The notes below the pieces were generated by a model. The model did not search any database. It was not told the origin of the DNA and worked only from the letters and a program-made list of their open reading frames with translations. Shown one piece after another: positions 3,365 through 51,409 of a stretch of 64,000 nucleotides of DNA (positions within the stretch are counted from its first letter, which is position 1; every line of letters begins with the position of its first letter). Source of the DNA: Candidatus Woesearchaeota archaeon (lineage in GTDB: Archaea > Nanobdellota > Nanobdellia > UBA10117 > JABICX01); contig JABHLG010000006.1 of NCBI GenBank assembly GCA_018692915.1, positions 5,627-69,626 on the forward strand. The letters run 5' to 3'. The position numbers and the translations under genes were made by a program.

Positions 3365-3462
3365 TTTAAGATTGCCATAATAGAAGGTCAACAATTCAAT
3401 TGTCGGCTGACGCCTTCTGCTAAAGCAGTGATTGAAACTTCCAATATGCTTTTATAAATGTT

Positions 3463-8897: not shown

Positions 8898-9097
8898 GCT
8901 TGTTTCTTGAATTCAGTAAATCCACATTTACCGCAATGGAATCTGTCTTTGTGTTCAGCCATGAAAATAGCTAATCCACATTTTGGACATTCTCTTTTAT
9001 TCTTTTTTCCATTTACATAGTAGTGTGCTTTGATTGTTGATTTTGAAGGTTTTCTTTGTTTCTTACCCTTTACATTCGATTTTTTTACATTTCCCAT
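8894..9097 (-). CDS. rps27ae: Ribosomal protein S27ae (eS31)
   Basis: Zinc ribbon CPKCG...CGKCG in a small basic protein, adjacent to S24e as in most archaea. Confidence 0.85.
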
Positions 9098-9159
9098 AAA
9101 ACTTTTACAAAAGTTTCATCAAAAACTTGTTTGCTATGCAAACAAAGCCTTCGGCAAAA

Positions 9160-9567
9160 CTATTGGTTACCTCCTTCTTGCTCTTCAGCAGACACCTCAG
9201 CTTTTGGTTCTTCCTTTTTCTCTTCAGCTGGTTTTTCTTCTGGCTTAGCTTCAGCAACAGGTGCTGGAGCAGCTTCCGTTTCTTTCTTTGGTTTTGGAGT
9301 GTTTCGTTTAACAATATATTTTGGTTCTTTTCTTTCTAATTCTTCTTTTGATTTGTAAACATGTGCTAATCCTCTAATTGAATCTTTACCAAATTCAGAA
9401 TCTATGCTAATGATTGCGATTGTTTCAGCTTTGTGCCCGATTTTTGCAGCGATTAAGTCACTAGTTTCTTGTCGTGTTGGGGTTGCGCCAGTTCCAGTTG
9501 CTTTGAATGTGATATCTTCTCTATCAAAAAGTGCGTTTTTATTCTGTTTTATAATTTTAAAATCCAT
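9160..9567 (-). CDS. rps24e: Ribosomal protein S24e with a K/E/P/A-rich C-terminal tail
   Basis: MDFKIIKQNKNALFDREDITF...GLAHVYKSKEEL core. An extra low-complexity tail of about 35 aa follows. Confidence 0.85.
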   Translation of the reverse strand: MDFKIIKQNKNALFDREDITFKATGTGATPTRQETSDLIAAKIGHKAETIAIISIDSEFGKDSIRGLAHVYKSKEELERKEPKYIVKRNTPKPKKETEAAPAPVAEAKPEEKPAEEKKEEPKAEVSAEEQEGGNQ

Positions 9568-10697: not shown

Positions 10698-11231
10698 ATG
10701 TTTAAAACTCTATTTATGGCTAAACCTGATGATTACAATAAGACTGCGAAGATTTACAATAATCGTTATAGAGAAACTCAATTTGAGAAATATCGAATAA
10801 TGCTATCAGGTCTTAAACTAAATGGGCAAATTTTAGATCACGGTTGTGGCACAGGACTTTTAGGTGAATTTTTAGCTTCTTGGGGGAGCGAAGCGGGGGA
10901 AGTTGGTAAGAGGGCATGGCTCTTACATGGATGTGATAGTTCTAAAGAGATGCTTAAAATTCGAGGAGCTGGAGATTTGTGTAATGTAGAAAAATTGCCT
11001 TACAAAAACACAGAGTTTGACTTTGTGTTAAGTTTCTCTATGTTGATGAATTGTAAAAATCCTGAAAAAGTAATCAAAGAAATCAAGCGAGTTCTTAAGC
11101 TAAATGGAACTTTTGTATGTACTTTTCTAAAATCCTTTGAATCTAAATTAAAACCTCTTCTTGAAAAACATTTTAAAATTCAATTAGAAACAAATTGCGG
11201 AGAAGATGTAGGATTCTTGTTTAGACTCTAA
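10698..11231 (+). CDS. Class I SAM-dependent methyltransferase
   Basis: Motif I is ILDHGCGTGLL, with an acidic motif II region. Contains a GC-rich in-frame insertion (10878..10926). Confidence 0.75.
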   Translation: MFKTLFMAKPDDYNKTAKIYNNRYRETQFEKYRIMLSGLKLNGQILDHGCGTGLLGEFLASWGSEAGEVGKRAWLLHGCDSSKEMLKIRGAGDLCNVEKLPYKNTEFDFVLSFSMLMNCKNPEKVIKEIKRVLKLNGTFVCTFLKSFESKLKPLLEKHFKIQLETNCGEDVGFLFRL

Positions 11232-11259
11232 CAAATAACTTGAATCTATCTTTCTCTTC
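11221..11259 (-). pseudogene. Displaced duplicate of the last 13 codons (including stop) of the DUF655 gene
   Basis: Encodes EEKDRFKLFVRV*, identical to the functional end at 11355..11317. 7 of 39 nt differ and all are synonymous. It overlaps the methyltransferase stop convergently. Confidence 0.85.
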
Positions 11260-11316
11260 GAAACTTTTCAAAAAATTTTCACTAAAACGTCTAATTGTAA
11301 CAGAATACCGACAGAA
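11260..11316. repeat. Hairpin element, short form (family copy)
   Basis: gaaacttttcaaaaaattttc (compare gaaactttttcagaaaaagtttc at 51077) followed by aaaacgtct...cgacagaa (compare aaaacgttgct...cgcaacaataa). Abuts the DUF655 stop codon. Confidence 0.7.
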
Positions 11317-11871
11317 TTAAACACGAACAAACAGCTTGAATCTGTCTTTTTCTTCTAGCTCATCCATTATTCTTTGTATAACTAATTTCTTTGGGTTTGA
11401 GACAGAGCTAACTCTAGTTTTAATATCTTCAAAACTAACAAATGGTCGAACTTCTCTTTCTTCTAATAGCTCTTTTGCATGTCGCTTTCCAATGCCTGGA
11501 AGTAGCTCAAGAGTGTGTGCTCTAAGTGAGATTGGTCCAGAATAGTTAAAGAAATTAACAAATTTCTCTTCTCTTTTATCAACAAGACTTTCAATTATGA
11601 ATTTTAACTCGCTTTTAGCTGTCTGAGTTAGTTTTTCATTTGGTAGAATTCCTCTAATCCATGCAATCTGATCTCGTTCACCTTCACCAATGTAGACCTC
11701 ATCATGTGCTTTTAGAGCTATATCTGGTTTAGGAACTAATTCAAAAAGTGTAAAATGGTCACGACCTAGTGCCTGAACAACAGGTTCTTTCTGATGTAAT
11801 GGTCTAGAGTCCTCTGGATAGCCGTTCTTCAAAAAATCTAATACGATTGCATATTCTTCTTTCGCTCTCAT
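11317..11871 (-). CDS. DUF655 / COG1491 predicted RNA-binding protein
   Basis: MRAKEEYAIVLDFLKNGYP N-terminus and a C-terminal HhH-like region. Has the conserved archaeal neighbourhood with rpo4. Confidence 0.75.
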   Translation of the reverse strand: MRAKEEYAIVLDFLKNGYPEDSRPLHQKEPVVQALGRDHFTLFELVPKPDIALKAHDEVYIGEGERDQIAWIRGILPNEKLTQTAKSELKFIIESLVDKREEKFVNFFNYSGPISLRAHTLELLPGIGKRHAKELLEEREVRPFVSFEDIKTRVSSVSNPKKLVIQRIMDELEEKDRFKLFVRV

Positions 11872-14312: not shown

Positions 14313-14329
14313 ACTTTTTAGCAGAAATG

Positions 14330-14350
14330 GAGGTTTTTAAGTGCTTTGAT
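14330..14350 (-). promoter_or_regulatory. Promoter block shared by srp54 and ftsY (TATA-like TTAAAAAC)
   Basis: gaggtttttaagtgctttgat begins 18 nt upstream of the srp54 ATG. 20 of 21 nt match 18928..18948, which sits at the same spacing from the ftsY ATG. Confidence 0.55.
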
Positions 14351-14406
14351 TAGAAGATTATAACCGTTAATCTTATAAACTAGTCATTACACAGTAGCAC
14401 TATAGT

Positions 14407-16410
14407 ATGACACTTTCAGAAGTAAAAAATTCGGTTCAAGAAACTATATTTCTTAAAGACCGTATCAAAACAAGTCTAGAAAAAATAATTAAGTTAAATA
14501 AAGAGATAGATCCTGGTGATGACGGATATAAACGATTTGTTAATGCTAAGTCTGATGATATAATGCCATATGTTCAATCTAACTGGACTGATCTTGATGA
14601 GGCTTCGCTGGTTAATGATAGTCAAGTGATTTTATTTGGAGATACCAATCATGCAAAAACAGGTAATATTGGCGGTATGGCAAAGTATATACCTCTTTTG
14701 AAGAAAGCAGGAATTACTGATGTAGCTATTGAGTTTCCAAGAGATGAGAAGAATCTCGAAGCAGTTACTCAGTTTAATGAGACTGGAGACTTGTCTCTGA
14801 TACGACCTATTGCAAATCAGACAAGAACACCTGTACGAATTGTTAGATTTTTTAGAAACGCACATCAAGAAGGAATGAATGTATCTTTAATAGATATGCC
14901 TGAAAAATCTCGGGATTCAAAATGGAGCACTACCCAACTTAACTATCAAAGAGGAATATATATGGGCCAAGTTCTTTCTGAGTTAGCTGAAGATTCTAAT
15001 GTTAAAATTGCGGCTTTTTGTGGTGCGGGACATTTTAGAGAAAAAGAAATACCGAAACAACTAACTGATGATAATATTGCATTTAAGAAATTTGCAGTTG
15101 TTACTCAAGGACAACCTATGTCGTTTATACTTCCAGATAATCAATATGAGATCGGCCCAGCAAATGCAGTAAATAGATGTGATTTATCTAATCGTAGTGG
15201 GTTTGTTGATTTAAATAATAATTACGATTTAGATGGATTTATATATTTTACAAAATCTAGTCTTATTGAGGATCAGAAATCTGCTAAATTAATTCTTGAT
15301 GATATTTCTAGTATTATCCCTTCTGTAGATGCACCAAAAGAAAACGCATTAGCACATTTAACTGGAAGCACAGCAATTCAAACAATTTCACAGCATTTTG
15401 GAAATCGTGTGGATCCATCATTATATACCTGGGAAGGCACAAATACTGAAAAGATTTATGATTTTGTAAATAATATTGACAGTCTAAATAATGGACAGAA
15501 ACTTCATCTATCAATTATGCTGGAGAATTATGTTCGTACTACTCTGCGTCATGGTGGAGGTTCTATACTTAGAATGGAATTTGATTCAGATGCAAACGCA
15601 TTTGGTATAGATACTATTGATACTTTTGGAAAGAAATTTGATGCAGAAGAGTATGCTGCTGCACGTGGAAAACACAGAGAAGTTACGTTAGATATGTTAC
15701 TTTCACAATATAATTTTGAAGACATAATGATTAAAGACGTAAGTCAAATACCTGAGACAGATATTTTACCTAATCCAGAAAATCTAGAAAGTGCACATAA
15801 GGTTATGATATTAATGTCTGCGTATGCGACGCACCCAGAACGGATTACGTGGGCAAATGATCGAAGTACACCTATGATTGGAGTTTATCGGGAAGGAAAT
15901 CATAATGATGATTATATTACTCGACTTGGTATTGAAGATTTTCTATTAACTGATATGGAGAGCAAGCTAGTTGATTTTGAAAAAAAGAATTCCGAGTACA
16001 CTCATAATATGGATAAGTTAAATACATTATTCTATTCATTTAGTAAAGATAAAGCTCTTTCTTTTAGTTATCGTAAAAAAGTGAAAAATTATAGCAGTGA
16101 GTTCATAGCCATATTTAGTGATATTATTTATGCAAGCAATAATGTAACGCGTAAGATAATTAATGCTCGATCTGAGCTACAGTATCTTAGTAACGATTCC
16201 GCAGAAACGCTGATTGAAAATGCTTATAACAAATTAGAAACATATAACGCAGTTATTAATAATGTGGCAGATGTTATGGATAAGAAAAATGTCTATCGAG
16301 GCAAATTTTTTGAAAATGATCTTGACTTTAAGCAGATTATTCAGGATAATCGCGAAATGGTTAAAGATTTAAGAAGTAATCTTAATGACATCAGAACATC
16401 GCTTAATTAA
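14407..16410 (+). CDS. Hypothetical 667-aa protein (cassette X1); N-terminal region has ChaN/Tiki-like motifs
   Basis: ILFGDTNHAKTG ... VAIEFPRDE ... AAFCGAGHFRE resemble the GExH / GxGH pattern of the ChaN (haem-binding uptake)/Tiki/erythromycin-esterase fold. The rest is orphan. Unverified. Confidence 0.45.
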   Translation: MTLSEVKNSVQETIFLKDRIKTSLEKIIKLNKEIDPGDDGYKRFVNAKSDDIMPYVQSNWTDLDEASLVNDSQVILFGDTNHAKTGNIGGMAKYIPLLKKAGITDVAIEFPRDEKNLEAVTQFNETGDLSLIRPIANQTRTPVRIVRFFRNAHQEGMNVSLIDMPEKSRDSKWSTTQLNYQRGIYMGQVLSELAEDSNVKIAAFCGAGHFREKEIPKQLTDDNIAFKKFAVVTQGQPMSFILPDNQYEIGPANAVNRCDLSNRSGFVDLNNNYDLDGFIYFTKSSLIEDQKSAKLILDDISSIIPSVDAPKENALAHLTGSTAIQTISQHFGNRVDPSLYTWEGTNTEKIYDFVNNIDSLNNGQKLHLSIMLENYVRTTLRHGGGSILRMEFDSDANAFGIDTIDTFGKKFDAEEYAAARGKHREVTLDMLLSQYNFEDIMIKDVSQIPETDILPNPENLESAHKVMILMSAYATHPERITWANDRSTPMIGVYREGNHNDDYITRLGIEDFLLTDMESKLVDFEKKNSEYTHNMDKLNTLFYSFSKDKALSFSYRKKVKNYSSEFIAIFSDIIYASNNVTRKIINARSELQYLSNDSAETLIENAYNKLETYNAVINNVADVMDKKNVYRGKFFENDLDFKQIIQDNREMVKDLRSNLNDIRTSLN

Positions 16411-16656
16411 TTAAAGCATTTTCTTTAATAATTTTTTAGGGTTAAATATTTCTAAATCTTTGTATTCTTGCCCTGTTCCACAGTCTCTAATTTTCTGAGC
16501 AATTTCTTTAGCTAAAGTAATATTAACATCAGCTGCTATCAATGCTTTTTTGATATCAGAAGATAATTCAATAACTGCTTTCTTATCAACTAGACCAATA
16601 TTTGTTATTTTCTTCAAACTTTCTTTTAGTCTGTCTGATAATGAGTCTAATACCAT
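16411..16656 (-). pseudogene. In-frame chimera: first 58 codons of srp54 fused to the last about 22 codons of ftsY
   Basis: 16484..16656 matches 14140..14312 (7 of 173 mismatches, all synonymous). 16411..16479 matches 17849..17917 (4 of 69 mismatches). The junction lies at a tgttcc microhomology. Confidence 0.85.
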
Positions 16657-16681
16657 TAAAATAAAGTAAATTTTAGTTTTA

Positions 16682-16700
16682 TAAAGAAGACGAATTGAAG
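16682..16700. repeat. 19-bp perfect direct repeat, copy 1
   Basis: taaagaagacgaattgaag, identical to 17423..17441. Confidence 0.8.
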
Positions 16701-16702
16701 TA

Positions 16703-16975
16703 TTAATGTAAATATTTCAATAGACCTTTTGCACTATTTAATAATGTATTAAATCTAAAATCTTTGAATTCATCAGATATTGAGTCACAATCATTAATTA
16801 ATTCTGTCAATTCAGATTTAGTATTTAGATCGTTGACTTTTTCTATGGCTGACGAATTAATTGTACCATCTTGATTTGTTCCATGTTCGATATAAGATAA
16901 GTTATATGTAGCGAAAGCTAATCTTCCATATATTTCTAAAACTTTTTTCACCTCATCAGATGAATATTTTTTCAT
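16703..16975 (-). CDS. Hypothetical protein (cassette X2)
   Basis: 90-aa ORF, no motif recognised. Confidence 0.3.
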   Translation of the reverse strand: MKKYSSDEVKKVLEIYGRLAFATYNLSYIEHGTNQDGTINSSAIEKVNDLNTKSELTELINDCDSISDEFKDFRFNTLLNSAKGLLKYLH

Positions 16976-17008
16976 TTAACTGTACTAAATAACACTTTTT
17001 AAAGTCTT

Positions 17009-17425
17009 TTGATGTGTGATTTTATGGGAATAGAAATTCTTATGAAAAATGATTTGGAAAAAGGTGCAGAGATTCTCGAATTTTTTATGAGAAAAAGATA
17101 TTCTGAAGAAATGGATTATGATGTTGATAGAGCTTCTTTTGCGAGTACATATATAATAATGGGTTTAAAACACTCAAAAAATGAAGAGTTAGTTGATAGA
17201 ACTAAAGAAATATTGCGTCGTATAATGAATAATTATATGTTTGATGTAGATAAAGATCAGAGTTATTTATATGAATTGACAACAGTATCAACATTTTACC
17301 GGATTCCAGAAACAACTAATTTTTTAGAAAAAATAAAACAAAGTAATGACTATATAAAATTGAATGATAATTTGAAAGATAGAGTTGAACGATGTGTTTT
17401 TACTTTCGAGCAAGAAAAAAATTAA
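17009..17425 (+). CDS. Hypothetical protein (cassette X2)
   Basis: 138-aa ORF, helical composition, no motif recognised. Confidence 0.3.
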   Translation: MMCDFMGIEILMKNDLEKGAEILEFFMRKRYSEEMDYDVDRASFASTYIIMGLKHSKNEELVDRTKEILRRIMNNYMFDVDKDQSYLYELTTVSTFYRIPETTNFLEKIKQSNDYIKLNDNLKDRVERCVFTFEQEKN

Positions 17426-17441
17426 AGAAGACGAATTGAAG
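17423..17441. repeat. 19-bp perfect direct repeat, copy 2
   Basis: taaagaagacgaattgaag, identical to 16682..16700. The pair brackets the two divergent ORFs 16703..17425. Confidence 0.8.
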
Positions 17442-17462
17442 ATATCGAACTGTTTTTAAAAT

Positions 17463-17852
17463 TTGCCACTGATATTTAATATGTCAGAAATTGTTGATAA
17501 TATTTGGGAAAAAACTCGCAAGATTGCGTTAGAATTAACTATTGAAGATGCTAAAGAGATTGCAAGTGCATTTAAGTTTTTTAATGAAGCAGTTGGTACT
17601 AAGCGAATTAATGATGGAGATTATTTCTTGCATACATTTCTTGCAAATGTAGCTCGTTATCAGACTAAATTTACTGATGCGGAAAAAGATTTCTTGCTAA
17701 ATGATGCTAAAACAGGTAGAGGTCAGACAGAAACAGTTATTTTATGTATATTGAATGAGAATAGTTCTAAACATTTAGAAACCTTGGAAGAAAAGAGAGC
17801 ATATCCAATATATAATGTATTTAGTGATGCGATTAATGCTGCATATCCTTAG
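17463..17852 (+). CDS. Hypothetical protein (cassette X2)
   Basis: 129-aa ORF (non-ATG start in the track). Its stop overlaps the ftsY stop convergently. Confidence 0.3.
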   Translation: MPLIFNMSEIVDNIWEKTRKIALELTIEDAKEIASAFKFFNEAVGTKRINDGDYFLHTFLANVARYQTKFTDAEKDFLLNDAKTGRGQTETVILCILNENSSKHLETLEEKRAYPIYNVFSDAINAAYP

Positions 17853-18910
17853 AGCATTTTCTTTAATAATTTTTTAGCATTAAATAGTTCTAAATCTTTG
17901 TATTCTTGCCCTGTTCCGATGAAAAGAATTGGTTTTCCAGTTTCATAGCCCGCAGAGATTATTGCTCCACCACGCTCATCTGCATCAGTTTTTGCTACAA
18001 TTGTTCCATCAATGTTAATCATCTGAGAAAAGTATCTTGCTTGCTCAACTGCATCGTTTCCAGTTAAAGCATCTACAACTAATATTGTGAAATCAGGATG
18101 AATTACTCTTTTGATTTTCTTAAGTTCGTTCATTAAATCTTCAGAAGCGTGCTGTCTTCCAGCAGTGTCAATCATTACAATATCCAAATTTTTTGCTTTT
18201 GCATGCTCCATTGCATCATAAGCAACAGCTGCAGGGTCTGCACCATATTTGTGCTTAACCATTTTGATTTTTAGATTGTCTGCATGATGTTGTAGCTGCT
18301 CAATTGCAGCAGCCCTGAATGTATCGCCCGCTGCAAATACAACAGATTTTTTATGGTCTTGGAAATATTTTCCCAATTTAGCTAAATTAGTTGTTTTTCC
18401 AACACCATTTACACCTACAAAAAGAATTGTTAATGGCTTCTTGTTCTTTGATTCTGCTAACAAATCAATTTGTTTGGGTTTTGTAAGAACTTCTGTTAAA
18501 ATTTCCTTAAGTTTTTCAGAAATAATTTCTGCACTTGGTTTTTGTTTGTTTTCTAAAAGCTCTCTTTTAACTTCTTCAAGAATTCTTTCAGTAATATCAT
18601 AAGCAATATTATTCTGAATTAATGCATCCCCAAAATCTTCAAGAGCAGATTCTATTTTATCTTCTGAGCGCTTTGCAAAGAAACCTTTTTTCTCTTCTGA
18701 AGGGCCTGTGCCCCCTTCGACCTCCCCCGACTTCTGCGAAGTCTCCTCCAAAGGTTTATCTTCTCGGTGAAATCTTGCTGCTATTCTTTCCTTGAGGCTC
18801 TTTTTTTCTTCCTCAACAGGTTTTTCTTCTTTAATTTCTTCCTTAGGTTCCTCTACTTCTTCAACATCTTTCTTAAATTTTGAAAACGCTTCTTTTAATC
18901 GACCGAACAT
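17849..18910 (-). CDS. ftsY: SRP receptor FtsY
   Basis: K/E-rich A domain, N domain and G domain (GVNGVGKTT, DTAGR, AKTDAD). Confidence 0.95.
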   Translation of the reverse strand: MFGRLKEAFSKFKKDVEEVEEPKEEIKEEKPVEEEKKSLKERIAARFHREDKPLEETSQKSGEVEGGTGPSEEKKGFFAKRSEDKIESALEDFGDALIQNNIAYDITERILEEVKRELLENKQKPSAEIISEKLKEILTEVLTKPKQIDLLAESKNKKPLTILFVGVNGVGKTTNLAKLGKYFQDHKKSVVFAAGDTFRAAAIEQLQHHADNLKIKMVKHKYGADPAAVAYDAMEHAKAKNLDIVMIDTAGRQHASEDLMNELKKIKRVIHPDFTILVVDALTGNDAVEQARYFSQMINIDGTIVAKTDADERGGAIISAGYETGKPILFIGTGQEYKDLELFNAKKLLKKML

Positions 18911-22799: not shown

Positions 22800-23150
22800 A
22801 ACTTTGGATTTAGCCAAAGGTGGGCAAATTGAGTGGGCTATTTGGTTATGAAGTCGCATCCGCGATAGACCATTAGCTGTGAGTTGAGGGCAACTGTTGG
22901 TTACTCAAAAGCACTCTGCGAGGAACAATAGGCTATAAAGCCTCGTGAGTAGCTTCCCTGTGATTAGCATCTCTTAACTTTCGGAAAGGCTTTGAAACAT
23001 AAAGTTTGAGTTACTGAAAGGGTATGGGGACTTTATGTGAGGAGAATTTCCCATTCGAGCCTATAAGTAATCCCTTTCTTGTAAGAAAGGTTTTACAATC
23101 CTAAAGAACATTTTGTAAAAGAGGTCTTTTAACCCCAGAAAACATTTAGC
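22800..23150. ncRNA. Candidate structured RNA (RNase P RNA / SRP RNA size class; identity unresolved)
   Basis: About 430 bp without an ORF between two genes, visibly more G+C than the flanks. Clear stems: tcgc-atcc-gcga (22854..22865), aggct-ataa-agcct (22930..22943), cataaagt...actttatg (22998..23005 / 23030..23037), cctttctt-gt-aagaaagg (23073..23090). GAGGAA (22920) and CAGAAAAC (23136) are only loosely RNase P CR-I/CR-V-like. Confidence 0.4.
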
Positions 23151-34460: not shown

Positions 34461-35222
34461 TTATAATTTATGATATGTTACAACTGGTTGATCTTCACCA
34501 ACTGGCTCAGCGTCAATCACTGCAAAATTATTATCAAATAGAGCACCAGGATTTATAGTATGCTGTCTATGTTTGAATAGTCTAAACGAATTTGAATCTA
34601 CAAAAGGAACGTAGCTAACAATACCTTTTGCAGGGTCCTTATATGTATATGCTGGCTCATGGTCGTGGCCTCTAATCATAACTTGATAGCCCTGTCTGTT
34701 TCTCTTGCTTGCCATAACTGCGAAGTTTGCAGCATGATCTGCTGAATTTGAAAGACGGTTCCAAAGCATTTGAACAGCAGGCGAATTTCCAGAACTACTA
34801 TGCTGGTCTCCAGCATAAGCTCCATGTATAACAATTATTTTCTGTTCTGGAGTTAAGTCTGTAGAAACTCTCTTGCCAAGTATACCGCTATTACCAAAAT
34901 ATCCCCGTTCGAATCCAGTTCTTATAAAATTAGTAGCTTCAGGATCATTTGCCCATTCTTTCCACATCTGAGGCGAATTAATACTTTGCTTGCGCATAGT
35001 GCCAGAGTATATAGTTTCACCATTAATATGCGAATAATCATGATTTCCAACAACCGCAATAGTGTCTTCAGTATCTAAAATATCCATTAATTCATGAGCT
35101 AAATGTGCTCGGTCTAAATCACCTAGAACAACTAGTTTATCAAAATTAGTTTCATCTTTAATTTCGTCTACTTTTCTTGCTAATGGAGCGCCATGTACGT
35201 CTCCTACGATTGCTATTTTCAT
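34461..35222 (-). CDS. Calcineurin-like metallophosphoesterase
   Basis: IAIVGDVHG, VLGDL, VVGNHD and IRGHDHE motifs. Confidence 0.8.
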   Translation of the reverse strand: MKIAIVGDVHGAPLARKVDEIKDETNFDKLVVLGDLDRAHLAHELMDILDTEDTIAVVGNHDYSHINGETIYSGTMRKQSINSPQMWKEWANDPEATNFIRTGFERGYFGNSGILGKRVSTDLTPEQKIIVIHGAYAGDQHSSSGNSPAVQMLWNRLSNSADHAANFAVMASKRNRQGYQVMIRGHDHEPAYTYKDPAKGIVSYVPFVDSNSFRLFKHRQHTINPGALFDNNFAVIDAEPVGEDQPVVTYHKL

Positions 35223-35281
35223 AGTATTACTTATAAGTGGAATAGTTTATTTAAAAAGCTTATCATTTTGTATTTTTGTGT

Positions 35282-35349
35282 AAAAAGTCAAGAGTCTGTG
35301 TAATAAGTCTAGCTAAAATACTACTTTATACACAAAGCCCAATATATAG
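35282..35349. repeat. Right copy of the imperfect inverted repeat bracketing the accessory island
   Basis: tttatacacaaagcc (35325..35339) is the reverse complement of 26732..26746, with extended patchy similarity. Confidence 0.4.
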
Positions 35350-35412
35350 AAACATTTATAAATTAAATAATTTACTTTATAGTAGTAATGAGAATTAACC
35401 TTAATAGACACA

Positions 35413-36378
35413 ATGATGGAAACTAATTATTATTGGCGATTGGGACTAGAGAATGGAGCATCTATAGAAGATGTTAAGTCTGCGTTTAGAAAAAGAGCTA
35501 TGAAATTGCACCCTGATGCACATCAAGATGAAGATATTAAGGAAAGAGCCGAATGGGGTTTTAATTATATGAATGAAGCATATGAAATATTGGGAGATCC
35601 TGATAAGAAAAGAGAATATGATAAAAAATTAGAAAATTTAATCCCTGAAACAGACCATTCCAACAGTCATTTTGAAAATAATAATACTGAAGTGAATATG
35701 CAGAATGAAATTAATAAAGAATATGCTCGAAGTATGAAAGATTTTAATGAACGTAGGGATGCTTTTTGGAAAAATAGACCTTCATATAGATTTAGTGGAA
35801 GAAGATCTGAAAATGCTGCACAGAGCAGAGAACAACAACATGGTAAACGTTTTTCAGAAAATTTTGAGCTAGAAGATGGAGCAACAGTTGAAATTAATGG
35901 TAGCAATTTTTTGAGATTTGATATTTTTACAAATAGTACTACTGCAGAATTCAAAGGATACAAAAAATCACCAATTTTATATAAAAAAGAACATGTAATT
36001 TTATCACAATTTAGTGGAATAGTTACTTTACCACGGAATGTGGATTTGGAATTAAGTATTAAAATGAATGATAATCCTTCCGCTCTTGTTGATGGTACAA
36101 TTGTCCATGCTGGAGATTTATCTATCTTGAATGGTAATATTGATATTAATCTTGATGGAGACATTGGCGTTTTACTTAAATCCACTAAACCTATTGTAGA
36201 TAGCTATGACATCAAAGGTATGAAACATAGAAAAGGACAATCTAGTCTATTTGGACAAAAATATACTACATCTAGGAAAGATCCTGCAAGAATGCTTAAT
36301 ATTAGACCTGATGTAAGTGGTGTAAAAATTAGTCATAATAATCCTACAGGTTTTATGGATAGATTCTATAAAAAATAG
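35413..36378 (+). CDS. J-domain (DnaJ-like) protein with an orphan C-terminal beta-rich domain
   Basis: YYWRLGLENGASIEDVKSAFRKRAMKLHPDAHQ contains the HPD tripeptide. The C-terminal half has repetitive beta-strand-like segments (DUF4097/adhesin-like impression only). Confidence 0.7.
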   Translation: MMETNYYWRLGLENGASIEDVKSAFRKRAMKLHPDAHQDEDIKERAEWGFNYMNEAYEILGDPDKKREYDKKLENLIPETDHSNSHFENNNTEVNMQNEINKEYARSMKDFNERRDAFWKNRPSYRFSGRRSENAAQSREQQHGKRFSENFELEDGATVEINGSNFLRFDIFTNSTTAEFKGYKKSPILYKKEHVILSQFSGIVTLPRNVDLELSIKMNDNPSALVDGTIVHAGDLSILNGNIDINLDGDIGVLLKSTKPIVDSYDIKGMKHRKGQSSLFGQKYTTSRKDPARMLNIRPDVSGVKISHNNPTGFMDRFYKK

Positions 36379-36448
36379 TTCCAAGGGAACTCACCTATTG
36401 TTTAAAGTAAACAATAAATTGTTTTTAATTAATTCAGATCTTGTCTGA

Positions 36449-36811
36449 ATGAAAGAGAGTATTGGTGTTGTTGTGAGATTGTATTTAGATGTTGAAAATA
36501 AAAAAGATAATCATCCAACAAAAAAAATGCAAATAATCAGACCTTATTTAAATTCTAAATTTTCTGAAACTGCAAAAGATTGTGTAACTGATTTAGAATA
36601 TTTTTTAGCACGTAGAGGAAGATATACTTCTTGTGGAGATCAAAATATTAGAATTAATGGAGAAGAACATAGAGCAATTGTTACAACTTATTCTTTAAAA
36701 TACTTTGATTCTAAAGATATTGATAAAATTATAAGTTATACTTATAAGAAAAATATAGATTTATATTTATCTTTTCCAGATGTTGTTAAAGAACATATCG
36801 AAAATAGCTAA
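36449..36811 (+). CDS. Hypothetical protein
   Basis: 120-aa ORF, no motif recognised. Confidence 0.3.
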   Translation: MKESIGVVVRLYLDVENKKDNHPTKKMQIIRPYLNSKFSETAKDCVTDLEYFLARRGRYTSCGDQNIRINGEEHRAIVTTYSLKYFDSKDIDKIISYTYKKNIDLYLSFPDVVKEHIENS

Positions 36812-36841: not shown

Positions 36842-37252
36842 GTGAAACAAAAAGGTAGTGCAGCTGAGAGAGAATTAGTAGCAATGTTCTGGGGAACAGG
36901 TAACTGGAGCTCATTAAGAATTGCAGGAAGTGGAAGAATGAATTTTCCAAGTCCTGATGTTTTGGCAGGTAATGGTTCACAGATTTTTGCAATTGAAGTA
37001 AAAAGCACAAAACACAAGAGCCAATATATTGATGCAGATCAGATTCAGCAATTGAGAGACTTTGCAGAAAAGTTTGGAGCAACACCTTTGGTTGCAGTTA
37101 AGTTCTCAACAAAATGGCACTTTTGTAGCCCAGATGACATGAAGAAAACCACTTCTGGAAAGCACGTTCTACATAAAGAAAAGCATAAAGATATTGTAAA
37201 GCAGTTTGAAGAAGTTATTTCACGACGACCAGACCAAATAGCTGAGGAGTGA
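36842..37252 (+). CDS. hjc: Holliday junction resolvase Hjc (C-terminus remodelled by an insertion)
   Basis: GSAAERELV...GSG....PDVLA...IFAIEVKS (E...PD...ExK of Hjc), with a GTG start. The last 12 codons read into inserted sequence. Confidence 0.8.
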   Translation: MKQKGSAAERELVAMFWGTGNWSSLRIAGSGRMNFPSPDVLAGNGSQIFAIEVKSTKHKSQYIDADQIQQLRDFAEKFGATPLVAVKFSTKWHFCSPDDMKKTTSGKHVLHKEKHKDIVKQFEEVISRRPDQIAEE

Positions 37253-37288
37253 AGCGATGTGAACTGTCGCAGTCAGTTCACTGGAGAG
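37217..37288. repeat. 72-bp GC-richer insertion with an 8-bp-stem hairpin between duplicated hjc 3' segments
   Basis: Hairpin gtgaactg (37259..37266) / cagttcac (37274..37281). Supplies the current hjc stop TGA (37250..37252). Confidence 0.6.
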
Positions 37289-37354
37289 CAAGTGTTACAT
37301 AAAGAAAAACATGCTCATATAGTTAAACAATTTGAAGAAGTTCTAAATTTGTAA
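37289..37354 (+). pseudogene. Displaced copy of the hjc 3' end (22 codons including the native-looking stop)
   Basis: Encodes QVLHKEKHAHIVKQFEEVLNL*, against HVLHKEKHKDIVKQFEEV in the gene (37163..37216). 12 of 54 nt differ, 8 at third positions. Same reading frame as hjc. Confidence 0.8.
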
Positions 37355-37624
37355 TTATAAACTTTTACCACTAGTTGGAAAGCGTTTAGCAATTTCTTCA
37401 ACAGGTAATTTCTTAACTAAACTATTCCCATTAGTAAGACTATCGGGATTTAATGGATCAGATAATCCCTCGCCATTATCTAAACCATTTCTATCAGTTA
37501 ATAAATATGGAGTTTGGCTAATTCCCTCTGGAGGAAATTGTTTTGAATACGTTGCTTTTACTTTTGGTCTGCGTGCTTCATCTCCTTGTGGGATATCTTC
37601 ATATCTTCTTTGAAATACTTCCAT
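37355..37624 (-). CDS. Hypothetical protein
   Basis: 89-aa ORF, no motif recognised. Confidence 0.3.
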   Translation of the reverse strand: MEVFQRRYEDIPQGDEARRPKVKATYSKQFPPEGISQTPYLLTDRNGLDNGEGLSDPLNPDSLTNGNSLVKKLPVEEIAKRFPTSGKSL

Positions 37625-38890: not shown

Positions 38891-39292
38891 TTATAATTTA
38901 CTTTCTAAAATTGAGCGATATTTTAGTGCTGTGCTATACAGTGCAGCTGCGTGTTCAGTATCATCAATATTATGATCTATAAATATTACTGTTGAATCTA
39001 AACCATCATTTAGTTCATCAGTTAGATCATCTGAAAGTATTGCAAGACTACATGTATCTCCTGGATAAACTTCAATATATGTTAAGCCAAAATTAGGATC
39101 CCAGGAAAGTTTAATATATTCAATATTTGATCGTTCTGCTTCACATAATGATTTAGCATATTTTTCAATAAATAATTTATCTAAATCAGTTAATTTTTTG
39201 GTAGCTTTTGTCCAACCTTTTGGTAATTCTACATTAACATTCCATTCTTCATTATGTTCAGTATATTCAAATGCATCTTGTGAATATTCCAT
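38891..39292 (-). CDS. Hypothetical acidic protein
   Basis: 133-aa ORF, no motif recognised. Confidence 0.3.
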   Translation of the reverse strand: MEYSQDAFEYTEHNEEWNVNVELPKGWTKATKKLTDLDKLFIEKYAKSLCEAERSNIEYIKLSWDPNFGLTYIEVYPGDTCSLAILSDDLTDELNDGLDSTVIFIDHNIDDTEHAAALYSTALKYRSILESKL

Positions 39293-39321
39293 AAAGAAGG
39301 TTATACTAAAGTCTTAAAAAA

Positions 39322-39963: not shown

Positions 39964-39992
39964 TTCAAATTTACTGGTTGAACTTTAAAAAG

Positions 39993-40322
39993 TTAAAGAA
40001 ATGATTTAACAACCTTAGAATTGAGTATTTCTCCCATAGGTTTAGAATTAGTTTTATCACATAAAGTTCTTATTACTTGTTTATCTTTTTCAGGTAATTT
40101 TCCCCCAGGCATAACTTCATCTGTGCGATATATCCAACTAAATTCATTATCAGAGTTTATAGTAAATATAATTTCTTTTTTATGAATATTATTAATTCTA
40201 AATTCTATGCTATCTTGACCGCACTCTCCATCTTTTGTAAACTTATTTTCTGTTAGATATGTATCTATATCATTGCACATTTCCGCAGATAAATGTGTAT
40301 TTGAATGATATGCCGTTATCAT
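39993..40322 (-). CDS. Hypothetical protein
   Basis: 109-aa ORF, no motif recognised. Confidence 0.3.
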   Translation of the reverse strand: MITAYHSNTHLSAEMCNDIDTYLTENKFTKDGECGQDSIEFRINNIHKKEIIFTINSDNEFSWIYRTDEVMPGGKLPEKDKQVIRTLCDKTNSKPMGEILNSKVVKSFL

Positions 40323-40353
40323 ACGCTTGTTTTAATTATTGTTTTAAAAAGAT

Positions 40354-47516: not shown

Positions 47517-47556
47517 GAATAATATTGTTTTTAACTTAGAGATTTATTATAGTATT

Positions 47557-47610
47557 ATGCAATACATATCTGATTTACATCTTCATAGCAGATTTTCTAG
47601 AGCTACATCC
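47557..47610 (+). pseudogene. Displaced duplicate of the first 18 codons (including ATG) of the PHP-domain gene
   Basis: Encodes MQYISDLHLHSRFSRATS, against MKYIADLHLHSRFSRATS at 47688..47741. 10 of 54 nt differ, 7 at third positions, giving 2 aa changes. Confidence 0.85.
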
Positions 47611-47687
47611 AAACTTTTTCAGAAAAAGTTTGACCAAAAACGCTGCTCATATATAATTTGTATTAAATCGCAGCAGGAGATATATGT
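47611..47687. repeat. Hairpin element, short form (family copy), abutting the ATG of the PHP gene
   Basis: aaactttttcagaaaaagttt (identical to 51078..51098) followed by aaaacgctgctcatatataatttgtattaaatcgcagcagg (compare 51155..51196). Confidence 0.8.
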
Positions 47688-48980
47688 ATGAAATATATTG
47701 CTGACTTGCACTTACATAGCAGATTTTCTAGAGCTACATCTAACAAGCTAGACCTACCTAATCTTGAGAAATATGGTAAGATAAAGGGACTTAATTTGCT
47801 TGGAACGGGAGATTTTATGCATCCACAATGGCAGAAAGAGCTAAAGTCTGAACTAACTACAGATGGTTCTGGAATTTACAAAACAAAGTCAAGATATCCT
47901 TTTGTTCTTTCAAATGAGATTTCTTTAATGTATCGTCAGGGCGATAAAGGTCGTAGAGCACACGTTGTTCTTCTTGCGCCAAATATGGATGTTGTGGACC
48001 AAATTACAGATTACTTCAAAAAATTTGGTAGAGTTGATTATGATGGTCGACCAATATTCGGTAAGAGTATAATTGAAGTTACAGAAGGGCTAAATAATAT
48101 ATCTAATGATATTGAAATAATACCTGCACACATATGGACACCTTGGTTTGGTTTGCTTGGTTCAAAATCAGGTTTTGATTCATTTAAAGAAGCACTTGGT
48201 GACCAAATAAAGCATATTCATTCATTTGAAACAGGACTTAGTTCTGACCCTGAGATGAATTGGCGAGTTTCTGAACTAGATAAATTTACAGCTCTGTCTT
48301 TTTCAGATGCACATAGCCATTGGCCTTGGAGAATTGGTAGGGAAGCAACTTTGTTTGACTTGAAAAATCTAACTTACAAAGATTTAATTAACGCAATTCG
48401 AACACGAGACGGCTATGAAGGAACAATTGAAGTTGACCCTGGTTATGGACGGTATCATCATGATGGACACAGAAATTGTGGAGTTAGTTTCATTCCACAG
48501 ATTTCTAAAAAGTATAATGATATTTGCCCAGTTTGTAAAAAGCCACTTACAATTGGAGTTATGTATCGAGTTGAAGAATTAGCAGATAGGCCAGAAGGAT
48601 ATACACCAAAAAATGCAGCAAAAGTATACAAATTACTACCTTTATCTGATTTGATTTCTGGAGTAGTTGGAACAGGAGTAGCAACGCAAAAGGTTTGGGA
48701 AATTTTCAACAAACTAATTGATAATTTTGGTTCAGAATACAATGTTCTTCTAAATGTTTCTGCAGATGATTTGCAAAAAGTTGTGGATGAAAATATAGTT
48801 CAGTTTATCTTAAAGAATCGTGCAGGTCAGATTGAAGTTAAGCCAGGTTATGATGGTGTTTATGGCGAAGCAATCTTTGGAGAGAAACCACAACCTAAAC
48901 CATTTGTATCTGAACGCCCGGCTAGTATGGAACAACAAAAACAAATAGAAAAACCCCAAAAGAGTTTAACTGATTTCTAA
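47688..48980 (+). CDS. PHP-domain phosphoesterase with an internal zinc ribbon (COG1379-like)
   Basis: ADLHLHSRFSRATS (PHP motif I), HIWTPW, FSDAHS, CPVCKKPLT. The architecture matches the archaeal COG1379 family. Confidence 0.7.
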   Translation: MKYIADLHLHSRFSRATSNKLDLPNLEKYGKIKGLNLLGTGDFMHPQWQKELKSELTTDGSGIYKTKSRYPFVLSNEISLMYRQGDKGRRAHVVLLAPNMDVVDQITDYFKKFGRVDYDGRPIFGKSIIEVTEGLNNISNDIEIIPAHIWTPWFGLLGSKSGFDSFKEALGDQIKHIHSFETGLSSDPEMNWRVSELDKFTALSFSDAHSHWPWRIGREATLFDLKNLTYKDLINAIRTRDGYEGTIEVDPGYGRYHHDGHRNCGVSFIPQISKKYNDICPVCKKPLTIGVMYRVEELADRPEGYTPKNAAKVYKLLPLSDLISGVVGTGVATQKVWEIFNKLIDNFGSEYNVLLNVSADDLQKVVDENIVQFILKNRAGQIEVKPGYDGVYGEAIFGEKPQPKPFVSERPASMEQQKQIEKPQKSLTDF

Positions 48981-51003: not shown

Positions 51004-51038
51004 AATAAATTCTAAAATAACAGCTTTATAAAACTTCT

Positions 51039-51077
51039 TAGTTCAAGACTTCAGTAACCTTAGCTTTTATGTCTGCG
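51039..51077 (-). pseudogene. Displaced duplicate of the last 13 codons (including stop) of rps27e
   Basis: Encodes ADIKAKVTEVLN*, against ADIKSKVTEVLN* at 51235..51197. 5 of 39 nt differ, 4 of them synonymous third-position changes. Confidence 0.85.
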
Positions 51078-51196
51078 AAACTTTTTCAGAAAAAGTTTCA
51101 TCACCAAGCTGAACTTTGTTCAGCGAGGCCAAGAAAATCAAAGATTTTCTCTGGAAAACGTTGCTCATATGTGTTGGTGTTCAATCGCAACAATAA
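51078..51196. repeat. Hairpin element, long (composite) form, abutting the rps27e stop codon
   Basis: Left hairpin at 51078..51098. Inner two-hairpin module catcaccaagc-tgaactttgttca-gcgaggccaagaaaatcaaagattttctctgg at 51099..51154. Right arm at 51155..51196. Confidence 0.8.
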
Positions 51197-51409
51197 TTAA
51201 TTTAATACTTCAGTAACCTTAGATTTTATATCTGCTTTTCCGCCTTTTGATTTAGCTAAAAGTTCATCACAAACAAGGCATTTTACATCGCTTGCAGCTT
51301 TTTCGAAAATAATTTGAATATTTTTACATTTAGCACATTTTACTTTTATAAAACTTGAACTTGGACCTTTATCTTTTACCATTTTAGTTGTTCTCCTTTT
51401 GTTTTGCAA
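51197..51409 (-). CDS. rps27e: Ribosomal protein S27e
   Basis: Zinc ribbon VKCAKCKN...VKCLVCDE. The true start may be the internal MVKDKG. Confidence 0.85.
   Translation of the reverse strand: MQNKRRTTKMVKDKGPSSSFIKVKCAKCKNIQIIFEKAASDVKCLVCDELLAKSKGGKADIKSKVTEVLN

What the first reader, a model, noticed from the sequence alone, without database searches (positions are those of the whole stretch)
37163..37354. hjc 3' end duplicated (54 nt) around a 72-bp hairpin-bearing insert; the whole 126-nt addition is in frame
The hjc segment 37163..37216 (HVLHKEKHKDIVKQFEEV) recurs at 37289..37342 (QVLHKEKHAHIVKQFEEV) and continues LNL* like a native C-terminus. Twelve of 54 nt differ, 8 at third positions. 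Between them a GC-richer 72-bp segment carries an 8-bp-stem hairpin (gtgaactg/cagttcac) and provides the present stop (TGA 37250). As a result Hjc now ends ...EEVISRRPDQIAEE. Both copies are in the same reading frame. The duplicated length (54 nt) equals that at the PHP gene. The insert sequence is not the same as the 51078-type element, although both have a tgaac...gttca hairpin. This could be a second family or an older, diverged copy.
Basis: seen in the sequence. Interest (0 to 1): 0.65.

Follow-up and report, generated by a model that had tools for sequence, protein, structure and literature searches.

The report
Foreign tail and hairpin insert in hjc
The end of the Holliday-junction resolvase gene of this Woesearchaeota archaeon was overwritten by a ~100-126-base block from another strain (a foreign copy of the gene's tail plus a small two-hairpin element), and the original tail survives just downstream; the same layout recurs at several other gene ends in the window.

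Summary
A 62-nt direct repeat (37155-37216 / 37281-37342, 79% identical, 126 nt apart) flanks a 64-nt, GC-richer, two-hairpin insert (E_B). The insert supplies 11 codons and the TGA that now end Hjc. The structure is identical in four independent assemblies.

It is not an in-place duplication. Empty-site relatives end hjc 2-7 codons after FEE/FED. The downstream copy matches the nearest empty allele (4/36 differences), while the in-gene copy does not (11/36). Across four such loci in the window the paired copies give dN/dS of about 0.05, so both evolved as coding sequence, most simply in separate genomes.

Best reading: a foreign hjc tail plus E_B was recombined in ahead of the native tail. 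The route was a homologous crossover on one side and either an illegitimate joint at the hairpin base or integration of a small circle. E_B sits at the same junction in two other lineages, once as a ~270-nt form without duplication. It was not found anywhere else.

A different hairpin family shows the same layout at the PHP, S27e and DUF655 gene ends. The closest known analogue is the fungal mitochondrial "gene hybrid", but here there is no endonuclease gene. I rate it a new variant of a known kind.

The parts
36842..37252 (+). hjc ORF as it now stands (136 aa, GTG start, TGA stop)
   Evidence: PF01870; NCBI name: Holliday junction resolvase, Candidatus Woesearchaeota archaeon
37155..37216 (+). 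copy 1 (H1) of the hjc tail segment; translated
37181..37216 (+). part of copy 1 that looks foreign: 11/36 differences from the nearest empty allele L069, against 11.2% over the first 339 nt of hjc (P=0.0014)
37217..37280 (+). E_B, a 64-nt non-coding two-hairpin insert; its first 33 nt encode ISRRPDQIAEE
37218..37254 (+). hairpin 1 (TTTCAC ... GTGAAG); two compensatory pairs in lineage L075; its 3' arm contains the stop codon
37250..37252 (+). TGA, the present hjc stop, supplied by the insert
37259..37281 (+). hairpin 2 (GTGAACTG / 7-nt loop / CAGTTCAC); its outer base is the fixed right-hand junction in all three lineages
37281..37342 (+). copy 2 (H2), the displaced native tail segment, untranslated; its last 36 nt differ from L069 at only 4 positions (3 synonymous, 1 Val/Ile)
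37343..37354 (+). native last codons LNL plus TAA, directly abutting the convergent gene
37355..37624 (-). convergent 89-aa ORF; in the empty-site genome L008 its end overlaps the hjc stop by 12 nt
47556..47743 (+). same layout at the 5' end of the PHP gene: displaced native head 47556-47612, type-A hairpin element 47613-47686, in-gene (foreign) head 47687-47743; empty site in L069 and L070
51038..51235 (-). same layout at the 3' end of ribosomal protein S27e: displaced tail 51038-51076, type-A element 51077-51196, in-gene tail 51197-51235
11221..11355 (-). same layout at the 3' end of the DUF655 gene: displaced tail 11221-11259 (also the end of the convergent methyltransferase ORF), type-A element 11260-11316, in-gene tail 11317-11355; all 7 nucleotide differences leave the peptide identical
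9097..9166 (+). type-A hairpin element lying between two genes with no gene-end copy (simple arrangement)
16411..16656 (-). 81-aa chimeric ORF: a copy of the SRP54 head (95%) fused to a copy of the FtsY tail (94%) at a 6-nt microhomology, between two ORF-bearing inserts; a kb-scale version of the same insertion-duplication layout

Best explanation
The hjc 3' end is a 'gene hybrid' left by inter-strain recombination.

What was added: a block of about 100-126 nt was joined into the resident hjc ahead of its own tail. The block consists of an allelic copy of roughly the last 12-20 hjc codons from another Woesearchaeota lineage, followed by E_B, a 64-nt two-hairpin non-coding element that sat directly after hjc in the donor.

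Current state: translation runs from the resident gene body into the foreign tail (KHKDIVKQFEEV), then through 11 element-encoded codons to a TGA in hairpin 1. The resident tail (…KHAHIVKQFEEVLNL*) remains untranslated and still abuts the convergent gene.

Mechanism (inferred):
- The left joint is a homologous crossover in or near the 13-nt stretch TACATAAAGAAAA that is identical in both copies.
- The right joint is fixed at the outer base of hairpin 2. It landed 62 nt upstream of the allelic position, which created the repeat.
- Two routes would give this. One is homology-facilitated illegitimate recombination of a linear fragment that ended at the hairpin. The other is single-crossover integration of a small circular or tandem [tail + E_B] form.
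- Once formed, the whole H1-E_B-H2 allele can spread by ordinary homologous recombination and can be lost again by recombination between the two copies.

The module is probably neutral or selfish. It replaces only the last 2-3 residues of Hjc.

Shown: the anatomy, its reproducibility, the native position of copy 2, the foreign-like divergence of copy 1's 3' part, coding-type divergence of both copies, and the patchy distribution of E_B. Inferred: the recombination route and the role of the hairpin as a break or join point.
For: 1. Empty sites. L069 is the closest relative (hjc p-distance 0.114). L070, L008/L074, L011, L071-73 and L076 are also empty. In all of them hjc ends 2-7 codons after FEE/FED, without E_B.

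2. Native versus foreign partition.
- Window copy 2, 3' part: 4/36 differences from L069. Window copy 1, 3' part: 11/36 (hjc background 11.2%, P=0.0014).
- L068 copy 2: 2/42 differences from its nearest empty allele L070. L068 copy 1: 10/42.
- PHP displaced head: 4/27. PHP in-gene head: 8/27.
- Pooled, 10/105 against 29/105, Fisher P=0.0012.

3. Coding-type divergence. For the four window pairs, pS=0.66, pN=0.076 and dN/dS is about 0.05. In a bootstrap over these pairs plus one mis-framed outside pair (L042), 0 of 2000 replicates reached 0.5. A copy that had been a pseudogene since an in-place duplication should push the ratio towards 0.5 or higher. In L080 the DUF655 copies differ at 8/27 nt, and all differences are synonymous.

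4. The element is real and patchy. It sits at the same left junction (FEE[V/I/L] | TTT[C/T][A/G]CGACGA) in three lineages. Copy 2 is 62 nt in the window, 41 nt in L068 and absent in L075. L075 carries a ~270-nt form (fold z=-4.6). The right end is always ...CAGTTCA. Helix 1 has 2 compensatory pairs. Occupied and empty alleles coexist within one 90%-identity protein cluster.

5. The simple donor-type arrangement exists, with the element beside the gene and no duplication: L075 for E_B and 9097-9166 for type A.

6. Independent kb-scale example. The SRP54/FtsY locus has order head, B, tail', head', A, tail, with a 6-nt microhomology (TGTTCC) at the novel joint. It is reproducible on at least 24 contigs.

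7. Possible microhomology at hjc. In L075 the element is followed by TGG, and the window joint reads CAGTTCA-C-TGG-AGAG where the gene has TTC-TGG-AAAG.

8. Precedent. The fungal mitochondrial gene hybrids show the same logic: the native C*-terminus is close to relatives and the inserted C-terminus is divergent with mostly synonymous change (PMC3630166). The definition of HFIR is in PMC3240628 (abstract).
Against: - No donor lineage with the KHKDIVKQFEEV tail was found.
- The segments are short (26-62 nt), so each single-locus test is weak. The evidence that the 5' part of copy 2 is foreign (6/26 against 3/26) is not significant.
- Integration and excision are mirror images. L069 could be a revertant that lost the module rather than a never-occupied allele.
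- Window-L068 divergence of E_B (about 17%) is similar to that of hjc itself. This also fits long vertical inheritance with repeated loss.
- HFIR and Campbell-type integration of ~100-nt molecules have not been demonstrated in archaea, to my knowledge.
- The microhomology at the hjc joint is only 3 nt and rests on a distant lineage's flank.
- No nuclease, integrase or transposase can be tied to the element. The nearest transposase (IS4-type DDE, 33487-34440) shows no evident link to it.
Confidence: 0.58

Rival explanations
1. In-place event. E_B inserted with a long target-site duplication (staggered nicks 40-60 nt apart), or hairpin-induced slippage duplicated the flank. The two initially identical copies then diverged in this lineage, and relatives without it lost it by recombination between the copies.
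For: - The left junction is constant in three lineages while the length of copy 2 varies (0, 41, 62 nt). That fits one fixed nick and one variable nick.
- E_B divergence between window and L068 (about 17%) is similar to that of hjc, as expected for an old shared insertion.
- Pairwise distances among the four H copies are star-like. These were counted by hand from the sequences, not computed.
- Tandem [H][E][H][E] arrays occur in other DPANN genomes (L018, L056).
Against: - dN/dS of about 0.05 between copies, with saturated synonymous change. A silent copy should have accumulated non-synonymous and disruptive changes.
- Copy 2 still encodes a perfect native tail, with only synonymous or conservative differences from L069.
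- At PHP the untranslated copy is identical to L069 over 18 nt, while the functional copy differs at 6 of those 18. That is the reverse of what decay in place would give.
- At PHP, 26 identical nt lie next to a stretch that is 33% diverged, which does not fit uniform ageing.
Confidence: 0.14
2. Scar of a larger integrative element. A virus or plasmid whose attachment site was the hjc 3' end integrated, giving attL and attR as the two hjc copies. Its interior was later deleted, leaving 64 nt.
For: - Direct repeats of 40-60 nt of a gene's 3' end, with the incoming copy restoring the gene, are typical of tyrosine-integrase elements in archaea. This is from my own knowledge; related reviews were listed but I did not read them. 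PMC3293823 describes a tRNA fragment plus an intact tRNA flanking a 1.8-kb recombinase-bearing element.
- hjc borders a ~10-kb strain-specific island with a restriction-modification methylase and an IS.
- L075 has a longer (~270-nt) form.
Against: - No integrase is present in the window ORFs next to hjc, and there is none in the L075 long form, which has no ORF.
- The same 64-nt remnant with the same ends in two lineages would need one deletion event that then spread.
- Four other loci have equally tiny ORF-less inserts at different genes, which one site-specific integrase could not serve.
- The island lies on the 5' side of hjc, not between the repeats.
Confidence: 0.13
3. Both tails are expressed through recoding, so that the repeat is functional. 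Candidate routes are archaeal bulge-helix-bulge splicing of the mRNA, translational bypass from copy 1 to copy 2, or TGA read-through.
For: - Both copies keep coding-type conservation.
- The 126-nt spacing keeps the frame.
- The stop lies inside a hairpin.
- Type-A hairpin motifs lie inside a genuine BHB intron of tRNA-Pro and in a T-arm insert of another tRNA in other DPANN genomes.
Against: - My BHB scan found the canonical intron in the control (L064: h=5, h'=10) but nothing comparable at hjc or the other window loci.
- TGA is the normal hjc stop in L008/L074.
- In L068 the second copy is out of frame.
- At the S27e and DUF655 loci the first copy already ends in its own stop.
Confidence: 0.05
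4. Assembly artefact: two strain variants of the hjc tail stitched in series.
For: The material is metagenomic and closely related strains co-occur.
Against: - The structure is identical in contigs from different samples, pipelines and assemblers.
- A diverged lineage has the homologous insert with a different copy-2 length.
- The insert has conserved structure with compensatory changes.
Confidence: 0.02

Closest known systems
Fungal mitochondrial 'gene hybrids' made by mobile endonuclease ORFs (Allomyces macrogynus atp6; Glomus atp6, atp9, cox2, nad3) - PMC3630166
   Same: The order is gene core, inserted foreign C-terminal copy, mobile insert, displaced native C*-terminus. The native copy is close to relatives, and the inserted copy is divergent with mostly synonymous change. 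The reading frame runs from the gene into the insert. The distribution is patchy and points to horizontal transfer.
   Different: Here the insert is 64 nt and has no endonuclease ORF or any other ORF. The host is an archaeal chromosome rather than mtDNA. The same layout also occurs at a gene's 5' end. The insertion point varies between lineages (copy 2 of 0, 41 or 62 nt), so no single cleavage site is implied.
Homology-facilitated illegitimate recombination (HFIR) in naturally transformable bacteria - PMC3240628 (abstract)
   Same: One end of the imported DNA is joined by homology and the other by an illegitimate (microhomology) joint. This accounts for a foreign patch bounded by a homologous crossover on one side and a novel junction on the other. 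The SRP54/FtsY joint in this window has 6-nt microhomology.
   Different: HFIR is usually described as adding or replacing DNA downstream of the anchor. Here the illegitimate joint repeatedly falls 15-62 nt upstream of the allelic position and at the base of a hairpin. It has not been reported in archaea, to my knowledge.
Integrase-mediated elements that target gene 3' ends and carry a replacement end (archaeal tRNA- or gene-targeting proviruses and plasmids; the Caldiarchaeum tRNA-Thr case, PMC3293823)
   Same: A gene fragment and an intact gene copy flank the inserted DNA. The att-like direct repeats are tens of nt long. Tandem accretion is seen (L018, L056).
   Different: There is no integrase. 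The cargo is 64-120 nt. Many different genes are affected. The repeats are 13-21% diverged rather than sharing a long identical core.
Small palindromic or hairpin repeats that sit in or next to genes (Rickettsia palindromic elements; mitochondrial double-hairpin elements and GC clusters; MITEs) - own knowledge; papers on the mitochondrial ones were listed but not read
   Same: These are short, GC-richer, ORF-less structured inserts in AT-rich genomes. They are sometimes in frame within ORFs, and nested insertion into hairpin loops occurs (L075).
   Different: None of them is known to come with a diverged copy of the neighbouring gene's end. E_B lacks terminal inverted repeats and a short fixed target-site duplication, and was not shown to be multi-copy.
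Archaeal bulge-helix-bulge introns
   Same: The type-A hairpin motif of this window is found inside a canonical BHB intron of tRNA-Pro (L064) and in a T-arm insert of another tRNA (L055).
   Different: No BHB motif bounds the hjc insert or the other window inserts. Those inserts lie outside or at the very end of ORFs.

Membership tests
Mobile-ORF 'gene hybrid' (fungal mtDNA type) | Inserted, divergent copy of the gene terminus in the gene, with the native terminus displaced beyond the insert | tested here: met
   Copy 2 differs from the nearest empty allele at 4/36 positions and copy 1 at 11/36. The pattern is replicated in L068 and at PHP.
Mobile-ORF 'gene hybrid' (fungal mtDNA type) | Homing-endonuclease ORF (LAGLIDADG or GIY-YIG) between the two copies | tested here: not met
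   Only 64 nt lie between the copies. There is no ORF beyond the 11 codons that end hjc. The ~270-nt form in L075 also has no ORF.
MITE / non-autonomous transposon | Terminal inverted repeats and a short target-site duplication of fixed length | tested here: not met
   The ends ATTTCACGACGA... and ...CAGTCAGTTCAC are not inverted repeats (read). The flanking repeat is 0, 41 or 62 nt in three lineages.
MITE / non-autonomous transposon | Many copies per genome | tested here: inconclusive
   There are no further E_B copies in the 64-kb window or in about 600 kb of held loci. The whole genome could not be scanned. The viral-contig scan found nothing.
Integrase-borne integrative element (att scar) | Tyrosine or serine recombinase gene in or next to the element | tested here: not met
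   Pfam scans of the neighbouring ORFs gave a restriction-modification methylase, DUF2779, a DDE_Tnp_1 transposase, a metallophosphatase and two ORFs with no hit. DnaJ is annotated. No integrase was found.
Integrase-borne integrative element (att scar) | Direct repeats of the target gene's 3' end with an identical core | tested here: inconclusive
   The 62-nt repeat has a 13-nt identical stretch, TACATAAAGAAAA. This is too short, and the flanks too diverged, to tell an att core from a homologous crossover.
Homology-facilitated illegitimate recombination product | One homologous junction and one novel junction with microhomology | tested here: inconclusive
   The foreign patch begins within hjc at about 37181. 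The right joint has at most 3 nt (TGG) of microhomology, inferred from the L075 flank. The SRP54/FtsY joint in the same window has a clear 6-nt microhomology.
Archaeal BHB intron | Two 3-nt bulges separated by a 4-bp helix at the two boundaries | tested here: not met
   My own scan recovered the tRNA-Pro intron in L064 (h=5, h'=10), and ARAGORN finds the tRNA after removing that intron. At hjc only weak hits (h of 2-4 bp, h' of 2-3 bp) appeared, at irrelevant positions.
Diversity-generating retroelement (template/variable repeat pair) | Mismatches between the two repeats confined to adenines of one copy | tested here: not met
   The 12 differences include C/A, T/G, C/T, G/A, A/G, A/C, A/T and G/C in both directions (read).
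Any Rfam RNA family | Covariance-model match at the gathering score | tested here: not met
   No hit at the gathering threshold in the whole window. Only chance-level hits appeared in E-value mode on 37100-37400 and on L075.

The most novel reading that the evidence does not exclude
E_B and the type-A hairpins would be an undescribed kind of ORF-less mobile element of DPANN archaea. In this reading they travel as tiny (about 80-160 nt) circular or hairpin-ended units made of the element plus the adjacent gene's start or stop region. They integrate by the host's homologous recombination into the same gene of other strains. This gives a harmless insertion, because the unit brings its own gene end. 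The same hairpins can also settle as tRNA introns or rRNA insertions. That would be a new transposition-free route of selfish spread, and a driver of allelic turnover at gene termini.
Probability: 0.22. Interest if true: 0.8.

Novelty: new variant of a known kind. Interest (0 to 1): 0.55.

Why it matters
If the reading holds, it matters in four ways.

1. Gene termini in these reduced, highly recombining episymbiont genomes are being overwritten piecemeal by DNA from other strains. Small hairpin elements mark the junctions, and there are at least five such junctions in 64 kb.
2. It would give a concrete, sequence-level signature of illegitimate recombination in uncultured archaea, where none has been documented to my knowledge.
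3. Gene callers will report altered C-termini (Hjc ...ISRRPDQIAEE) and orphan mini-ORFs that are really recombination scars.
4. It links hairpin repeats at gene ends with the hairpin-bearing introns of DPANN tRNA genes. That bears on the old question of how archaeal tRNA introns and gene fragments arise.

For Hjc itself the effect is probably negligible, because only the last 2-3 residues are replaced.

Tried and rejected
- BHB-intron splicing of the mRNA. My own scanner, with a positive control, found nothing at the window loci.
- DGR-type adenine mutagenesis. The mismatch spectrum is mixed.
- tRNA, tmRNA or a known RNA family in the insert. ARAGORN and Rfam were negative.
- Intrinsic-terminator function of E_B. 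No terminator-like site was found.
- E_B as a repeated element. It was found only at hjc.
- E_B as a relative of the type-A element. No similarity is evident when the sequences are compared.
- A 'multiple of three' rule for the spacing. It looked promising (126, 159, 96, 117, 81) but failed with L012, L056, L068 and L080.
- A homing-endonuclease link through the 16S rRNA gene of L043. The 211-aa ORF sits in a separate insertion about 40 nt downstream of the hairpin motif, not in it.
- Import of the whole hjc gene together with the upstream island. The hjc body is no more diverged from L069 than the downstream genes are.
- Literature search for the type-A core sequence. No paper holds it.
- The genome-contig scan with the 21-nt palindrome returned many unrelated bacteria (Oscillospiraceae, Rhodothermaceae and others). 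The bare palindrome is therefore not specific. Only hits with the extended GAYCAAAAAC linker and a second hairpin were treated as related.
- The L042 codon comparison was in the wrong frame. It is excluded from the point estimate of 0.05, although the bootstrap was run with it included.
Full report
**1. Observation**

The hjc ORF runs 36842..37252 and encodes 136 aa (Pfam Hjc). It ends ...KHKDIVKQFEEV-ISRRPDQIAEE followed by TGA. A 62-nt direct repeat (37155-37216 and 37281-37342, 79% identity, spacing 126) brackets a 64-nt segment, 37217-37280, which I call E_B. Copy 2 continues CTA AAT TTG TAA and abuts the stop of a convergent 89-aa ORF.

E_B is 48-50% GC in a 32% GC window. It folds into two hairpins. 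Hairpin 1 is TTTCAC/GTGAAG and its 3' arm contains the TGA. Hairpin 2 is GTGAACTG/CAGTTCAC.

Only four local direct repeats in the window reach a score of 18 or more. None did in 12 Markov simulations. The 321 nt around the site are identical in four independent assemblies, and the exact protein is on at least 23 contigs. NCBI names the protein as coming from a Candidatus Woesearchaeota archaeon.

**2. Which tail is ancestral**

Orthologues end 2-7 codons after FEE/FED...FEEILE*...FEELLDSLD*...FEDLLV*...FEDLIL*.

- In L008/L074 (a 788-kb contig) the hjc stop overlaps the convergent 89-aa gene by 12 nt, so there is no room for an insert.
- The closest relative, L069 (hjc p-distance 0.114), has a single tail...KHAHIVKQFEEILE*.

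Copy 2 plus LNL* therefore sits in the native position and has the native sequence type. The ISRRPDQIAEE tail is insert-derived.

**3. Not an in-place duplication**

Against L069, hjc differs at 11.2% over its first 339 nt but at 11/36 positions in the last 36 nt before E_B (P=0.0014). The corresponding 36 nt of copy 2 differ at only 4 positions: 3 synonymous and 1 Val/Ile.

The same partition holds in two other comparisons:

| Locus | Displaced copy vs nearest empty allele | In-gene copy vs nearest empty allele |
|---|---|---|
| hjc, window (vs L069) | 4/36 | 11/36 |
| hjc, L068 (vs L070) | 2/42 | 10/42 |
| PHP 5' end, window (vs L069) | 4/27 | 8/27 |
| Pooled | 10/105 | 29/105 |

The pooled Fisher test gives P=0.0012.

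Across the four window loci the paired copies give pS=0.66, pN=0.076 and dN/dS of about 0.05. In a bootstrap that also included one mis-framed outside pair (L042), 0 of 2000 replicates reached 0.5. Both copies therefore diverged as coding sequence, most simply in different genomes, and were brought together recently.

At PHP a 26-nt stretch is identical between the copies and lies next to a stretch that is 33% diverged. That is what a crossover region would look like.

**4. The element**

E_B occurs at the same left junction in three lineages:

- Window: copy 2 is 62 nt.
- L001/L068 (88% aa identity): copy 2 is 41 nt and out of frame. It is nearly identical to the intact tail of L070-type genomes.
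- L075 (77% aa identity): a ~270-nt form with extra GC-rich hairpins nested in both loops, no duplication, and the native remainder following directly.

The right end is always ...CAGTTCA. Helix 1 shows two compensatory pairs, although with only three sequences this is weak evidence. Occupied and empty alleles occur within one 90%-identity protein cluster. E_B was not found anywhere else in about 600 kb of held sequence or in the viral collection, so its multi-copy status is unproven. It matches no Rfam family, tRNA or terminator pattern.

**5. The pattern is general in this genome**

A different element, type A, has the core AAACTTTTTCAGAAAAAGTTT-GAYCAAAAAC followed by a second hairpin. It sits in the same layout at three gene ends:

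- the PHP 5' end (47556-47743);
- the S27e 3' end (51038-51235);
- the DUF655 3' end (11221-11355).

In every case the order is [displaced copy][hairpin-1 end of the element ... other end][intact gene end]. The element also occurs once with no copy, at 9097-9166.

L069 and L070 are empty at the PHP site. A related strain, L080, has a different type-A member and a shorter displaced tail (26 nt) at DUF655. All 8 differences between its two copies are synonymous.

Other DPANN MAGs show the same layout (L012, L042) or tandem [E][H][E][H] arrays (L018, L056).

The type-A motif also lies:

- inside a canonical BHB intron of tRNA-Pro (L064);
- in a T-arm insert of a tRNA (L055);
- next to tRNA-Val (L045);
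- inside the 16S rRNA gene (L043), in what I read by eye as a helix loop.

A kb-scale example is the SRP54/FtsY locus. It has copies of the SRP54 head (95%) and the FtsY tail (94%), fused at a 6-nt microhomology, between two ORF-bearing inserts. It is reproducible on at least 24 contigs.

**6. Mechanism**

The anatomy is N1-F2-E-(F1)-N2. That is the product expected from two routes. One is single-crossover integration of a small circular or tandem [tail + element] unit. The other is homology-facilitated illegitimate recombination of a linear fragment that ended at the base of the element's outer hairpin, with the illegitimate joint falling upstream of the allelic position. The mirror-image excision by recombination between the copies would regenerate an 'empty' allele.

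I cannot separate these routes, and I cannot separate gain from loss in L069. The variable copy-2 length with a fixed hairpin-base junction favours the hairpin as a break or join point. So do the existence of simple donor-type arrangements (L075, 9097-9166) and the microhomology at SRP54/FtsY. This step is an inference.

Splicing, bypass and read-through are not supported.

**7. Comparison with known systems**

The closest analogue is the fungal mitochondrial 'gene hybrid'. There a mobile endonuclease ORF carries a foreign C-terminus and displaces the native one (PMC3630166). The hjc case shares that layout and the sequence signatures, but it lacks any ORF.

It resembles integrase att duplications (PMC3293823) but has no integrase. 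It resembles HFIR products (PMC3240628) but with a recurrent hairpin-base joint. It fails the MITE criteria that could be tested.

I rate it a new variant of a known kind. The hjc instance itself is a probably neutral scar. The multi-locus pattern is the interesting part.

Noticed in passing
window 12945-18910: SRP54 and FtsY are separated by two ORF-bearing inserts (14313-16410 with a 667-aa ORF; 16657-17848 with three small ORFs; none has a Pfam hit). Between the inserts lies an 81-aa chimeric ORF made of a 95% copy of the SRP54 head fused in frame to a 94% copy of the FtsY tail at a 6-nt microhomology (TGTTCC). It is present on at least 24 contigs.
   Followed up: partly
window 9097-9166, 11260-11316, 47613-47686, 51077-51196: Four copies of a hairpin element family (core AAACTTTTTCAGAAAAAGTTT, a GAYCAAAAAC linker and a second hairpin with compensatory changes). 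Three of them have a diverged copy of the neighbouring gene end on the hairpin-1 side. The copy at 51077 carries extra internal hairpins.
   Followed up: partly
L064 (Diapherotrites MAG) ~3995-4180; L055 (Woesearchaeota MAG) ~3150-3420; L045 1534-1628; L043 2340-2400: The same hairpin motif lies inside a canonical 103-nt BHB intron of tRNA-Pro, in a ~51-nt insert in the T-arm of another tRNA, immediately upstream of tRNA-Val, and as a ~45-nt insertion in the 16S rRNA gene about 40 nt before a separate intron that holds a 211-aa ORF.
   Followed up: partly
Genome-contig hits L013-L067: The 21-nt palindrome with a similar GAYMAAAAAC extension is repeated within unrelated MAGs: Methanosarcina (many, in arrays separated by GATC), one Oscillospiraceae MAG (6 loci) and one Rhodothermaceae MAG (8 loci). 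I could not tell whether this is shared ancestry, convergence on terminator-like hairpins, or contamination.
   Followed up: no
window ~26700-36430: A ~10-kb strain-specific island lies immediately upstream of hjc. It holds an Eco57I/MmeI-type restriction-modification methylase fusion (954 aa), a DUF2779 protein, an IS4-type DDE transposase, a metallophosphatase and a DnaJ-domain protein. In the closest relative, L069, about 1.8 kb of unrelated sequence takes its place. A 120-aa ORF next to hjc (36449-36811) also has no L069 counterpart.
   Followed up: partly
window 38894-39317 and 39990-40352: Two single-gene insertions relative to L069 (133-aa and 109-aa ORFs, no Pfam hit) sit in intergenic spacers. 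They have only short ambiguous repeats at their borders.
   Followed up: partly
L075 520-700: The long form of E_B carries two related GC-rich hairpin units (ACCGAAGAATCTTCGATTCTCGG...GTCGGTA and ACCGGCGAATCGAAGATTCGCGG...GTCGGTA) nested in the loops of its two hairpins. This suggests a further small element family that targets hairpin loops.
   Followed up: no
window 10863-10940, 18675-18772, 22850-22961, 26811-26868: Short GC-rich islands (52-66% GC in 50-nt windows), some with obvious palindromes (for example GCTACGCTAGCAGCGTAGT at ~26845). None matches Rfam at the gathering threshold. They were not examined further.
   Followed up: no
window 11221-11231: The displaced DUF655 tail copy also contains the last four codons and the stop of the convergent methyltransferase ORF (10698-11231). 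Part of its conservation could therefore be due to that gene.
   Followed up: partly
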